From: a virus
Taxonomy: Duplodnaviria; Heunggongvirae; Uroviricota; Caudoviricetes
Length of the DNA stretch: 4,799 bases
Virus record (IMG/VR): IMGVR_UViG_2690316166_000016
Strand: one strand, 5' to 3'
Shown here: piece after piece, positions 1,758 to 4,799 of the stretch
Position numbering within the stretch: position 1 is the stretch's first letter
Layout of the letters: every line of letters begins with the position of its first letter
Position numbers and translations under genes: made by a program
The notes under the pieces: model-generated
What the model saw: the letters and a program-made list of their open reading frames with translations, nothing else
The model's database searches: none
Told to the model about the DNA's origin: nothing

Positions 1758-2138
1758 NNNNNNNNNNNNNNNNNNNNNNNNNNNNNNNNNNNNNNNNNNN
1801 NNNNNNNNNNNNNNNNNNNNNNNNNNNNNNNNNNNNNNNNNNNNNNNNNNNNNNNNNNNNNNNNNNNNNNNNNNNNNNNNNNNNNNNNNNNNNNNNNNNN
1901 NNNNNNNNNNNNNNNNNNNNNNNNNNNNNNNNNNNNNNNNNNNNNNNNNNNNNNNNNNNNNNNNNNNNNNNNNNNNNNNNNNNNNNNNNNNNNNNNNNNN
2001 NNNNNNNNNNNNNNNNNNNNNNNNNNNNNNNNNNNNNNNNNNNNNNNNNNNNNNNNNNNNNNNNNNNNNNNNNNNNNNNNNNNNNNNNNNNNNNNNNNNN
2101 NNNNNNNNNNNNNNNNNNNNNNNNNNNNNNNNNNNNNN
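1758..2138. other. Masked/unresolved sequence (381 N)
   Basis: Run of n characters; length is a multiple of 3. Hides the portal 3' end and the region immediately downstream. Confidence 0.99.
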
Positions 2139-2632: not shown

Positions 2633-2818
2633 CTACCACTCGATCGGCACGTAGTCATTAAGTTCCGGAGACCAATTGCACTTTTCACATCTGTGTTTTC
2701 CATTCTGGCAGATACATAAACGATAACGGCCACAATGCGGGCACCCATTTTCACCATTATCATAATCACCGAGCGACCATTCCTGCATAAGCAGCTCTTC
2801 TTCATCATCATTTAGCAT
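2633..2818 (-). CDS. Small Cys-rich protein (61 aa), zinc-ribbon-like, acidic N-terminus; function unknown
   Basis: ATG at 2818 preceded by AAGGGGGA; TAG stop at 2633-2635. Six Cys arranged C-x2-C-x5-C-x1-C-x6-C-x2-C (GCPHCGRYRLCICQNGKHRCEKC). Third gene of a co-oriented operon. Confidence 0.6.
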   Translation of the reverse strand: MLNDDEEELLMQEWSLGDYDNGENGCPHCGRYRLCICQNGKHRCEKCNWSPELNDYVPIEW

Positions 2819-2832
2819 TAATCCCCCTTGAG

Positions 2833-3072
2833 CTATTTACTCTTCTCGGCCCTCAAAATCATACGAGAACCATCATCCAGCTCCCAATTAATTTCACCGC
2901 CTTCTGCCATGACTAGATGCCAAACGAGTTGAGCGGCCTCGTTGGTTACATCGCGACCGCGATCATTTCCTACGCGGCGTTTTGTTCCGTCTCCTAAGTC
3001 ACGCATTTTTGCCAATACGATGGTTTTTGATAGCGGTGAAAAACCAAGCTGTAGTCGTGCTGAATTACTCAC
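2833..3072 (-). CDS. Hypothetical protein (79 aa), function unknown
   Basis: GTG start at 3072 preceded by AAGGGGG with a 6-nt spacer. The start overlaps the stop of the upstream gene as GTGA. An alternative internal ATG would give a shorter product. No recognised family. Confidence 0.55.
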   Translation of the reverse strand: MSNSARLQLGFSPLSKTIVLAKMRDLGDGTKRRVGNDRGRDVTNEAAQLVWHLVMAEGGEINWELDDGSRMILRAEKSK

Positions 3073-3593
3073 TGGCTGCCCCCTTTGTACTGTGTTAACT
3101 CTTCCTGCTCCTGCATCATGCGATTGACCTGAACGCGTGTGCGTCGAACGGCAAAATTAAATTGAAACATGAGCCGGAACATTTCTGATGCTTCCGTGTG
3201 AGCATCACGGATAGGTGACAGGCGGTACAGTTCTGCCTCCGTAGCTTGTTGAATCAATGACAGATCAAATTGAAGTGCGGGTCTGGTACATTTTGCACAT
3301 CTGGCAGCAAGCTCCGGTATTAGTCTCTTAACGAAGGTGTTTTGCACCGCTTTGTTGATTTGTGTCTGCATCCAAATCGCAAATTTCAGCGAACGCATAA
3401 GTTTGATAGCCTCGGGCAGCGGCAGATAGATCATGCTGGTAGATTTGGGTGGTTGGTGAACCATCTTCACGGATACGCGATTTCGCAGCGTTCGGAAAAT
3501 CGTGTTCCCAACAACAGCTTCTACGGATACAGGACAGGGAGCCAGACCAGCCCGCAGTGCTTCTTTCATTAGCATGTATTCGTATTTTTTCAT
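3069..3593 (-). CDS. Hypothetical protein (174 aa), contains one CxxC (CAKC); function unknown
   Basis: ATG at 3593 preceded by GAGGAA with a 6-nt spacer; TGA stop overlapping the downstream GTG start. Basic, no recognised motifs. First gene of the operon. Confidence 0.65.
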   Translation of the reverse strand: MKKYEYMLMKEALRAGLAPCPVSVEAVVGNTIFRTLRNRVSVKMVHQPPKSTSMIYLPLPEAIKLMRSLKFAIWMQTQINKAVQNTFVKRLIPELAARCAKCTRPALQFDLSLIQQATEAELYRLSPIRDAHTEASEMFRLMFQFNFAVRRTRVQVNRMMQEQEELTQYKGGSQ

Positions 3594-3716
3594 CGTGTTT
3601 TCCTCGTGCGGGGCGACAGTGCACCCCGATAAAATTAAAAGCCGTCAAATTCGTCATTCAGGAAATAATGCCCGGATATTCCCTGCTATCTGACTGGTTA
3701 TCTGTGCGGTTGGTAC
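3594..3716 (-). promoter_or_regulatory. 5' leader / possible promoter region of the three-gene operon (also the parR 3' flank)
   Basis: 104-nt spacer between the parR stop and the gene start at 3593. Contains a TTGACG -35-like hexamer (minus strand, plus coordinates 3643-3648) but no convincing -10 at proper spacing. The operon may instead be read through from parMR. Confidence 0.25.
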
Positions 3717-3985
3717 NNNNNNNNNNNNNNNNNNNNNNNNNNNNNNNNNNNNNNNNNNNNNNCTGTCCTGGTTTGTGTCACCGATAACGCCTCATCGTCA
3801 GCCCATGCAGCCAGTCGGTAAGCCTCTGCTGGATTCATTTTCAGAAGTGCCAGCCCGGCCAGAAAAGCCACGCGTTGGCCGCTTTTGCGGGCTTCTGGTG
3901 TAAGGCTGCCCAGCCNNNNNNNNNNNTCGTTCTTGACGGCCGCAGGCTTCAGATAGAAACTTATCCGTCTGGTTGGTGTCGTCAT
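3698..3985 (-). CDS. parR: ParR-like centromere-binding partition protein (type II partition), about 95 aa, partly masked
   Basis: ATG at 3985 preceded by AAGGAG with a 7-nt spacer. N-terminal region (TRRISFYLKPAAVKN ... LGSLTPEARKSGQRVAFLAGLALLKMNP) matches my recollection of the ribbon-helix-helix N-terminus of plasmid R1 ParR. Lies immediately downstream of parM on the same strand. The C-terminus runs through a 46-N mask, so the stop at 3698 is provisional. Confidence 0.6.
   Translation of the reverse strand: MTTPTRRISFYLKPAAVKNXXXXXLGSLTPEARKSGQRVAFLAGLALLKMNPAEAYRLAAWADDEALSVTQTRTXXXXXXXXXXXXXXXXYQPHR
3717..3762. other. Masked/unresolved sequence (46 N)
   Basis: Run of n characters inside the parR 3' region. 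Confidence 0.99.
3916..3926. other. Masked/unresolved sequence (11 N)
   Basis: Run of n characters inside parR; ParR-like sequence continues in the same frame on both sides, so the mask appears to preserve length. Confidence 0.99.
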
Positions 3986-4076
3986 TGGTTTACTCCTTGT
4001 CCATTGCGTACAGCCCATTAACCAGAGCAAACTGTGGCACCCGCTATCCGCGAAGCCTGCGGAGTTAATGCGACTT

Positions 4077-4799
4077 TCATCGCGGACGGGGTGCCACAAT
4101 CTCCGCCCCTCCACCGACAACCATCACCCGCCCGTAACCCGAAAAACCCGCCAGCGCGCGGATCACGCGTTGTTTCAGTGTTTCTTCCTTTTCACGAATA
4201 ACCGCCATCAGGCTGGCGTAATGCGCGTCATTGTGGATGTGCTGGCGCAGCCAGGCTTCATCATGGCGATGTTCGATAATGGTATTGGCGATGTGGTGAC
4301 TGGTGCGCATACCGTTAGTGGCCATCACCGACAGTACGGCATCGGCCATCAGAGAAACGCCTACGTGTGGATCGCAAAACACCTGGCTGATACCTGCCAG
4401 TTGCCCCTGAACCTTTGCCACATCCAGCGTGGTTCCGCCCAAATCCACAATCAGCAGGGATTCAAACGGACTCATGTCAGCCAGTGCCTTAAAGCCAGCC
4501 GGAATGGATTCAGGCATAACCCGCACGTTACGGATAGTGAATGCTTCGCCGTTCTGGTACTCCACCGGGCGCATAACGTTCGCTTTTTTGCGGTTGATGT
4601 TGGCCATGTCCGGCTGTGCGTTTGTGTCGAAATACTCGCTCAGTGGCAGGGTGACAACCACATCCACCTCCTGTGGCGTGATGCCTGATTTGACCAGCGC
4701 GTGATGAATGGCAATGACATTTACATCGCTGTACTGGTATTGCGTGTCGGTTGTCTGGACAAAGCGATCGCTGACCGGATCAAAACCATAGCGCACGCC
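4077..4799 (-). CDS. parM: ParM/StbA actin-like plasmid partition ATPase; N-terminus lies beyond the window end, 3' end apparently truncated or frameshifted
   Basis: Frame open to the window edge. Actin-fold motifs present: LIVDLGGTTLDV (phosphate-2), VMPESIPAG, VMVVGGGAE (adenosine motif). Extensive similarity to R1 ParM as I recall it (YSDVNVIAIHHAL, EVDVVVTLPL). The ORF stops only 7 codons after GGGAE. Confidence 0.8.
   Translation of the reverse strand, partial: GVRYGFDPVSDRFVQTTDTQYQYSDVNVIAIHHALVKSGITPQEVDVVVTLPLSEYFDTNAQPDMANINRKKANVMRPVEYQNGEAFTIRNVRVMPESIPAGFKALADMSPFESLLIVDLGGTTLDVAKVQGQLAGISQVFCDPHVGVSLMADAVLSVMATNGMRTSHHIANTIIEHRHDEAWLRQHIHNDAHYASLMAVIREKEETLKQRVIRALAGFSGYGRVMVVGGGAEIVAPRPR

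What the first reader, a model, noticed from the sequence alone, without database searches (positions are those of the whole stretch)
3986..4120. parM appears to end prematurely; ParM-like C-terminal residues continue in the +1 frame and run without a stop into parR
The parM frame stops at 4077-4079, seven codons after the GGGAE adenosine motif, whereas the actin-like fold needs roughly 30 more C-terminal residues. The +1 frame from about 4096 encodes ...HPVRDESRINSAGFADSGCHSLLWLMG..., which resembles what I recall of the R1 ParM C-terminus, and then continues uninterrupted into the ParR start at 3985. The frame change coincides with a CCCC run (about 4050-4060). This is either a genuine inactivating frameshift (a decaying partition system) or a homopolymer sequencing error.
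Basis: partly seen in the sequence, partly recalled or inferred. Interest (0 to 1): 0.45.

Follow-up and report, generated by a model that had tools for sequence, protein, structure and literature searches.

The report
Small hairpin-flanked inversion truncating parM
The apparent frameshift at the end of the parM gene is really a 46-base stretch flipped between two perfect 10-base inverted repeats; it occurs only in this one draft Shigella sonnei contig and is an ordinary one-off lesion or sequencing artefact.

Summary
The window is the whole 4,799-bp scaffold CXEP01000242.1 of a Shigella sonnei draft assembly (GCA_001256535.1). It is part of a P88-like (Xuanwuvirus, P2-family) prophage that carries an R1-type parM-parR pair.

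parM does stop early, at TGA 4077-4079, but there is no indel. A 46-bp spacer (4043-4088) lies between perfect 10-bp inverted repeats (4033-4042 and 4089-4098). It is the exact reverse complement of the sequence in every relative examined. Flipping it back gives 100% identity to intact prophages.

The missing ParM residues are encoded on the opposite strand. The last 17 codons (VPQFALVNGLYAMDKE plus stop, 3990-4040) remain in the original parM frame. The "+1 frame" peptide is antisense sequence, and its likeness to R1 ParM is at chance level (p=0.135). That frame is open into parR in intact phages too.

The inverted form is absent from 1,274 complete E. coli genomes carrying this parM and from three contig collections. 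Neither of two reconstructed full-length truncated ParM proteins is among 15 billion public proteins. It is therefore a singleton, not a phase switch.

I cannot tell a private mutation in the isolate from an in-vitro or assembly artefact (roughly 50:43). The scaffold also has three N gaps, a private 563-bp terminase deletion and a private SNP. Low interest.

The parts
4077..4799 (-). parM, truncated allele. The 5' end runs off the contig. It encodes native residues up to Pro287, then RPR and TGA (4077-4079).
   Evidence: ORF list and translation. Pfam StbA_N plus ParM C-terminal domain positions 1-129/159. 100% identical to L124 parM outside the inverted segment. The deposited product is CST17962.1, 'plasmid partition protein [Shigella sonnei]'.
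4089..4098 (.). Inverted-repeat arm on the 5' side of the spacer in gene orientation (TGTGGCACCC on the gene strand)
   Evidence: the repeat finder pair I3, 10 nt, 100% complementary, 46 nt between arms. The 10-mer occurs only at these two places in the 35.8-kb P88 genome.
4043..4088 (.). 46-bp spacer, inverted relative to all relatives. It carries three in-frame stops on the gene strand. On the + strand it carries the native ParM codons; together with the arms, + strand 4034-4099 reads VAPAIREACGVNATFIADGVPQ.
   Evidence: Alignment to P88, pZ1323PEC0009-2 and Shae_phiSM. In-silico re-inversion test. BLAST gives a 66-nt, 100% match on the opposite strand in L124-L127 and L130. + strand translation. 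The breakpoints can lie anywhere within the arms.
4033..4042 (.). Inverted-repeat arm on the 3' side of the spacer in gene orientation (GGGTGCCACA on the gene strand)
3990..4040 (-). Orphaned native 3' end of parM: VPQFALVNGLYAMDKE plus TAA (3990-3992). It is still in the original parM frame but lies downstream of the stops.
   Evidence: Frame translation. Identical to the P88 and L124 ParM C-terminus. Aligns to R1 ParM ...QYDLVNGMYLI.
3994..3999 (-). parR ribosome-binding site AAGGAG, 8 nt upstream of the ATG at 3985
   Evidence: Read directly from the sequence
3654..3985 (-). parR (Plasmid_stab_B family), interrupted by two scaffold gaps (3916-3926 and 3717-3762). Sequence-identical to L124 at all non-N positions.
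   Evidence: L124 ParR matches PF10784, E=2e-23. Coordinates mapped through L124. P88 ParR translation.

Best explanation
The 3' end of parM contains a quasi-palindrome: a perfect 10-bp inverted repeat (TGTGGCACCC / GGGTGCCACA) with a second 7-bp stem inside it. In this contig the 46-bp spacer between the arms has been flipped. The signature is that of inversion between short inverted repeats by strand or template switching at a hairpin during DNA synthesis: two switches, one in each arm.

Shown: the inversion itself, its exact boundaries within the arms, and the ancestral orientation in all relatives.

Shown consequence: ParM is cut after Pro287 and gains RPR. It loses 32 C-terminal residues, the last 30 positions of the Pfam ParM C-terminal domain.

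Inferred: the truncated ParM is non-functional, because this segment completes the actin-like fold. parR is probably still translated from its own AAGGAG site.

Inferred: the event was a single, non-programmed, private mutation in the prophage of this S. sonnei isolate. Partition genes of an integrated prophage are not under selection there.

Layered confidence: that it is an inversion and not a frameshift, about 0.98. That it is a one-off and not a switch, about 0.93. That it arose in the bacterium rather than in vitro, about 0.5. The number given is the last.
For: Exact reverse-complement relation with no net length change. Perfect 10-bp arms 46 bp apart. The 66-nt element folds as single-stranded DNA at -19.3 kcal/mol, z=-3.7. 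All 131 related loci fetched, including 7 near-identical S. sonnei/E. coli prophages, have the standard orientation. Spacer inversion by template switching between short inverted repeats is documented, and in that study only for arms longer than 9 bp (PMC8604942).

For an in-vivo origin: arms of 10 bp are far shorter than any usual assembly k-mer, so a de Bruijn graph cannot flip the spacer (reasoning from established assembler behaviour). The reads themselves must therefore carry it. A single fold-back chimera gives only one of the two junctions.

The 563-bp terminase deletion has a blunt junction between collinear points. Overlap-based misjoining or random ligation would not be expected to produce that. 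This suggests the prophage really is decaying.
Against: The inversion is a singleton. It is in 0 of 1,274 complete E. coli genomes carrying this parM. Both junctions are absent from the genome, viral and metagenome contig collections. Neither of the two reconstructed 290-aa full-length truncated ParM proteins tested is among 15 billion proteins; only the 239-aa partial from this contig is on record. The intact protein is on at least 1,000 contigs.

The same 4.8-kb scaffold has three N gaps whose lengths disagree with the reference, a private blunt 563-bp deletion 78 bp from the contig end, and a private SNP. Elsewhere it is identical to intact prophages. Such clustering of private anomalies fits poor data better than independent mutations.
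Confidence: 0.5

Rival explanations
1. In-vitro or assembly artefact. The isolate has an intact parM. The inverted spacer came from hairpin-mediated template switching during library amplification, or from greedy scaffolding and gap filling of a poorly covered region, and entered the consensus because few reads covered it.
For: Three N gaps in 4.8 kb, two of them within 330 bp of the inversion. Their lengths (11, 46, 381) disagree with the true 17, 20 and 236 nt. A second singleton structural anomaly lies 78 bp from the contig end, and there is a private SNP. The inverted form occurs in no other public sequence searched. The widely used Velvet/SSPACE/GapFiller pipeline, applied to 299 S. sonnei assemblies, is described by its authors as greedy and liable to false joins (PMC5320598). 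Whether this assembly came from that pipeline is my inference, not verified.
Against: An exact inversion with both junctions inside a 10-bp repeat needs molecules that carry both switches. A 10-bp repeat cannot confuse k-mer graphs or 29-nt overlap extension. At normal coverage artefact molecules are outvoted. The sequence outside the three anomalies is error-free against L124.
Confidence: 0.43
2. Programmed, reversible intragenic inverton of the premature-stop type. It would toggle ParM between full-length and truncated forms, and so switch partition of a phage-plasmid on and off. It would be catalysed by a recombinase or by the hairpin itself.
For: Flanking perfect inverted repeats and an inversion size (46-66 bp) like reported intragenic invertons, for example the 57-bp one in BT0375. 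Premature-stop invertons are described, and 118 were reported in Gammaproteobacteria (bioRxiv 10.1101/2023.03.11.532203). P88-like phages encode a DNA invertase.
Against: No second instance of the flipped state in about 1,274 complete E. coli genomes, at least 120 viral contigs carrying the standard junction, or the other collections. A working switch should leave some assemblies in the other state. The phage invertase's own sites (TTATCGAATACCTCGGTTTACAGGAA, flanking a 3-kb tail-fibre segment) show no similarity to the parM arms: score at most 8 against a null mean of 8.4. From established knowledge of Hin/Gin-type invertases, they need an enhancer and looped DNA, and 46 bp between sites is too short. 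Consensus assemblies cannot exclude a minority sub-population state.
Confidence: 0.04
3. One reading: a +1 frameshift from a homopolymer (C-run) indel, real or a sequencing error, with the ParM C-terminus continuing in the shifted frame.
For: A CCCC on the gene strand sits at the junction (4088-4091). The adjacent frame is open.
Against: No net indel: 281 nt against 281 nt. The frame before and after the lesion is the same. About 20 clustered mismatches are explained exactly by reverse complementation. The shifted-frame peptide is not significantly ParM-like.
Confidence: 0.01

Closest known systems
Spacer inversion between short inverted repeats by replication template switching (quasi-palindrome mutagenesis; Ripley model; e.g. 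PMC8604942)
   Same: Perfect arms of 10 bp or more. The spacer is exactly reverse-complemented. No length change. The ancestral orientation is present in relatives. The element can form a hairpin.
   Different: The spacer here is 46 bp. The yeast coding-sequence cases are a few bases long (spacers of about 3-5 bp) and were tolerated as amino-acid replacements. Here the inversion introduces three stop codons and truncates the gene. An in-vivo origin is not proven.
Intragenic invertons of the premature-stop type (Chanin et al., bioRxiv 10.1101/2023.03.11.532203)
   Same: An inversion lying entirely inside a gene, flanked by inverted repeats, of similar size, producing a premature stop.
   Different: No evidence of two states in any population or across strains. 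No matching recombinase site. Seen once only.
R1 plasmid ParMRC type II partition system (ParM structures 1MWK/1MWM, 4A62)
   Same: The intact relative's ParM aligns to R1 ParM over residues 2-316, E=8.5e-93. A ParR of the Plasmid_stab_B family lies immediately downstream.
   Different: It is carried by an integrating P2-family prophage (P88-like), not a plasmid. The window's allele lacks the C-terminal 32 residues. parC lies outside the window and was not examined.
Escherichia phage P88 / Xuanwuvirus prophages
   Same: Same gene order, replication endonuclease - parM - parR - variable genes - portal - terminase, at 96-100% DNA identity.
   Different: This copy has the parM inversion, a 563-bp terminase deletion and assembly gaps.

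Membership tests
Short-inverted-repeat spacer inversion (template-switch type) | Two inverted-repeat arms flank the rearranged segment | tested here: met
   10/10-bp perfect arms at 4033-4042 and 4089-4098
Short-inverted-repeat spacer inversion (template-switch type) | The spacer is the exact reverse complement of the ancestral spacer, with no net indel | tested here: met
   Re-inversion gives 0 differences from L124 and 3 distant SNPs from P88. Both segments are 281 nt.
Short-inverted-repeat spacer inversion (template-switch type) | The event occurred during DNA replication in the cell | not testable with these tools
   Needs raw reads or the isolate
Programmed intragenic inverton | Both orientations occur within populations or among strains | tested here: not met
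   0 inverted among 1,274 complete E. coli genomes, at least 120 viral contigs carrying the standard junction, and the GTDB species genomes and metagenome contigs. Minority states within samples could not be tested.
Programmed intragenic inverton | A cognate recombinase and a recognisable recombination site | tested here: not met
   The P88 invertase's gix-like sites are unrelated to the parM arms
   Equal lengths and the same frame on both sides
ParM (type II partition actin-like ATPase) | StbA_N plus the complete ParM C-terminal domain; homology to R1 ParM | tested here: inconclusive
   Homology is clear: PF06406 at 5e-54 and PF21523 at 4e-57, and the intact relative matches 1MWK at 8.5e-93. 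The C-terminal domain is incomplete in the window (129/159 positions) and the N-terminus is off the contig. So this is a ParM-family gene but a truncated allele.
ParMRC locus | A ParR adaptor gene immediately downstream of parM | tested here: met
   PF10784, E=2e-23 for the identical L124 ParR. The ATG at 3985 is 4 nt after the native parM stop.
ParMRC locus | parC centromere repeats upstream of parM | not tested
   The region lies beyond the contig end at 4799
Xuanwuvirus (P88-like) prophage | Synteny and high DNA identity to P88 across parM-parR-portal-terminase | tested here: met

The most novel reading that the evidence does not exclude
The conserved quasi-palindrome at the 3' end of parM in P88-like phages is a low-frequency reversible intragenic inverton, enzyme-independent or driven by an unidentified recombinase. 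It would switch the phage's partition system off by truncating ParM, and this contig caught a clone locked in the OFF state.
Probability: 0.03. Interest if true: 0.55.

Novelty: already known. Interest (0 to 1): 0.15.

Why it matters
Biologically it matters little. It is one disrupted copy of a well-known partition gene, in a common prophage, in one draft assembly.

Its value is methodological. A cluster of mismatches with premature stops near a gene's end looked like a frameshift but is a small inversion bounded by inverted repeats. Frameshift-aware aligners and pseudogene callers would misdescribe it. The deposited gene calls already do: parR is over-extended and parM is listed as a short product.

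If the inversion is real, it is a clean natural example in bacteria of a long (46-bp) spacer inversion between 10-bp repeats that inactivates a gene.

Tried and rejected
1. Homopolymer indel or frameshift: rejected, because lengths are equal and the frame is unchanged.

2. ParM-likeness of the +1-frame peptide: rejected by a shuffle test, p=0.135.

3. "Open frame into parR" as a consequence of the lesion: rejected, because intact L124 has the same 46 open codons.

4. N runs as masks laid over the window: rejected, because the deposited contig L131 is identical to the window including the Ns.

5. Phage Din-type invertase acting on the parM repeats: no site similarity.

6. De Bruijn-graph flip of the spacer: rejected by reasoning, since the arms are only 10 bp.

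7. Overlap-merge artefact for the terminase deletion: no shared sequence at the junction.

8. Looked for a listed parM inverton in the supplements of Chanin et al.: none are held as text.

9. Did not pursue look-ups of truncated ParM built on rarer alleles. The two commonest alleles were already negative.

10. Covariation test of the hairpin was not attempted. The fetched loci were selected with a pattern that fixes the left arm, so it would be biased.

Full report
**What the window is.**
The 307-aa ORF at 27-950 is on record on exactly one public contig: CXEP01000242.1 of assembly GCA_001256535.1, 4,799 bp long. That contig is identical to the window, N runs included. The deposited ParM fragment is CST17962.1, "plasmid partition protein [Shigella sonnei]".

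DNA searches place the window in P88-like prophages (genus Xuanwuvirus, Peduoviridae, P2 family). The gene order is replication endonuclease - parM - parR - small variable genes - portal - terminase. Seven near-identical prophages were fetched as L124-L130 through an exact look-up of the 174-aa protein at 3069-3593.

**Checking the observation.**
On the minus strand parM reads ...VMVVGGGAEIVAPRPR and stops at TGA 4077-4079. The intact protein in P88 and L124 is 319 aa and ends ...GGGAEIVAPAIREACGVNATFIADGVPQFALVNGLYAMDKE. The intact protein aligns to R1 ParM (PDB 1MWK) over residues 2-316 with E=8.5e-93.

The window's product matches only positions 1-129 of the 159-position Pfam ParM C-terminal model. 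The premature end is therefore real: 32 residues are lost and RPR is added.

The adjacent frame does read HPVRDESRINSAGFADSGCHSLLWLMG and does run into the parR ATG at 3985. Three parts of the observation fail.
- The peptide's similarity to the R1 ParM C-terminus is at chance level: score 19 against a shuffle mean of 15.3, p=0.135. The true segment scores 35, p=0.0005.
- The parR frame is open for the same 46 codons in intact L124, so this is not a feature of the lesion.
- There is no C run at 4050-4060. The runs are at 4088-4091 and 4106-4109.

Translating the parM frame further gives the decisive clue. It reads ...APRPR*KSH*LRRLRG*RVPQFALVNGLYAMDKE*. The native C-terminal 17 codons and the native TAA (3990-3992) are still in the original frame. 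Nothing is frameshifted.

**What it is.**
Aligned to P88, plasmid pZ1323PEC0009-2 and Citrobacter phage Shae_phiSM, the window is identical on both sides of a block of about 46 nt with clustered mismatches. That block is the exact reverse complement of the relatives' sequence.

Reverse-complementing the P88 segment, with breakpoints anywhere inside TGTGGCACCC...GGGTGCCACA, reproduces the window. Only three SNPs remain elsewhere in the 281 nt. Doing the same with the window gives zero differences from L124 at all non-N positions of parM-parR. BLAST independently reports a 66-nt, 100% match on the opposite strand in L124-L127 and L130.

In window coordinates:
- the arms are 4033-4042 and 4089-4098 (perfect 10/10);
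- the spacer is 4043-4088.

The + strand at 4034-4099 now reads VAPAIREACGVNATFIADGVPQ, which are the native ParM residues. The 10-mer occurs only at these two places in the 35.8-kb P88 genome.

The element is a quasi-palindrome with a second 7-bp stem (TCCGCGA/TCGCGGA). As single-stranded DNA it folds at -19.3 kcal/mol, z=-3.7. The RNA hairpin is kept in either orientation.

**How common it is.**
A 126-nt query centred on the element hits 1,274 of 5,426 complete E. coli genomes. All 1,268 records that cover at least 80% of the query fall in the 80-90% identity band, which is what the standard orientation gives when aligned through the palindrome. None covers the query at 95% or better.

Discriminating patterns of the form flank + arm + spacer were run for both junctions. 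Both give zero hits in the GTDB species genomes, IMG/VR and JGI metagenome contigs.

I reconstructed the full-length truncated ParM (290 aa) on the two commonest alleles. Neither is among about 15 billion proteins. The intact protein is on at least 1,000 contigs. The inversion is a singleton.

**Mechanism.**
Inversion of the spacer between short inverted repeats is the known product of two template switches at a hairpin during DNA synthesis. [quoted passage not shown] The 10-bp arms and the extra inner stem fit that model.

The consequences follow.
- Shown: three in-frame stops (4077-4079, 4065-4067, 4044-4046).
- Shown: ParM is truncated at residue 287.
- Inferred: loss of function, because the missing segment is conserved with R1 ParM and closes the actin-like fold (established knowledge of ParM structures).
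- Inferred: parR keeps its own AAGGAG site 8 nt upstream of its ATG, so it is probably still expressed.

**Is it a programmed switch?**
Intragenic invertons that create premature stops are described, including in Gammaproteobacteria, and P88 encodes a DNA invertase. Three points argue against a switch here.
- That invertase's sites are gix-like 26-mers flanking a 3-kb tail-fibre segment, and they have no similarity to the parM arms.
- From established knowledge, Hin/Gin-type invertases need an enhancer and DNA looping, and 46 bp is too short.
- No other assembly shows the flipped state.

I put this at about 4%.

**Real mutation or artefact?**
This cannot be settled from sequence alone.

The scaffold has three N gaps whose lengths (381, 46, 11) differ from the true 236, 20 and 17 nt. 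It has a 563-bp deletion in the terminase gene at 78|79, with a blunt junction, not a multiple of three, and on record nowhere else. It has a private synonymous SNP at 614. The remainder is identical to intact prophages.

Three private anomalies plus gaps within 4.8 kb suggest poor data. Greedy scaffolding and gap filling are acknowledged sources of false joins (PMC5320598). That this assembly used such a pipeline is my inference.

On the other side, a 10-bp repeat cannot mislead k-mer graphs or overlap extension. A fold-back chimera yields only one junction. A blunt, collinear 563-bp deletion is not what overlap misjoins or random ligation would be expected to produce. All of this suggests the sequenced DNA really carried these lesions, in a decaying prophage.

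My estimate is about 50% in vivo, 43% in vitro or assembly, 4% programmed, and 1% or less for the frameshift model.

**Verdict.**
The lesion is a small hairpin-bounded inversion, unique to one draft S. sonnei contig. It disrupts a well-characterised gene of a very common prophage. The kind of event is known, and the biological interest is low. The useful lesson is diagnostic: inverted-repeat-bounded micro-inversions can look like frameshifts.

Noticed in passing
window 78|79 (ORF 27-950): 563-bp deletion in the terminase large-subunit gene relative to L124 9371-9933, about residues 106-293 of 583. The junction is blunt with no microhomology, and the length is not a multiple of three. The resulting 307-aa ORF is on record only on this contig. 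The junction lies 78 bp from the contig end.
   Followed up: partly
window 1758-2138, 3717-3762, 3916-3926: The N runs belong to the deposited scaffold. Their lengths (381, 46, 11) do not match the sequence they replace in near-identical prophages (236, 20, 17 nt). They are therefore estimated scaffold gaps. They distort ORF calls: the portal really ends at 2139-2141, and parR really spans 3654-3985.
   Followed up: yes
window 614: Private synonymous SNP in the terminase gene. The window has A; the six near-identical loci that cover the site have C. It is the only substitution against L124 in about 4.4 kb.
   Followed up: partly
window 3698-4114 (-): The gene call on record for the contig merges the parR frame with 43 upstream codons running through the inverted spacer. 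It overlaps the truncated parM by 38 nt. This is an annotation artefact: the real parR start is the ATG at 3985, behind AAGGAG.
   Followed up: yes
parM-parR locus; L001, L002: This R1-type plasmid partition pair sits in integrating P2-family prophages found in 1,274 of 5,426 complete E. coli genomes (2,802 chromosomal places against 4 on plasmids). At least one 34-kb circular record is filed as a plasmid (pZ1323PEC0009-2). That hints at an episomal phase for these phages.
   Followed up: no
window 3940-3950 and 4052-4062: Perfect 11-nt inverted repeat CCGCAGGCTTC/GAAGCCTGCGG between the 5' part of parR and the inverted spacer. In the standard orientation it would be a direct repeat. It is absent in P88, where parR has GAAGCCCGCCG. 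Probably chance.
   Followed up: no
window 2633-3593 (-): Variable-region genes between parR and portal: a 174-aa protein with no Pfam match, a 79-aa DUF7446 protein, and a 61-aa Cys-rich protein with a weak zinc-ribbon hit. The 174-aa protein is listed in 1,373 blocks of the public assembly collection.
   Followed up: no
L132 (P88) 23822-23886 and 26862-26926; invertase at 26977-27564: P88 carries a Gin/Cin-like invertible tail-fibre segment of about 3 kb. It has gix-like crossover sites and an adjacent DNA invertase gene.
   Followed up: partly
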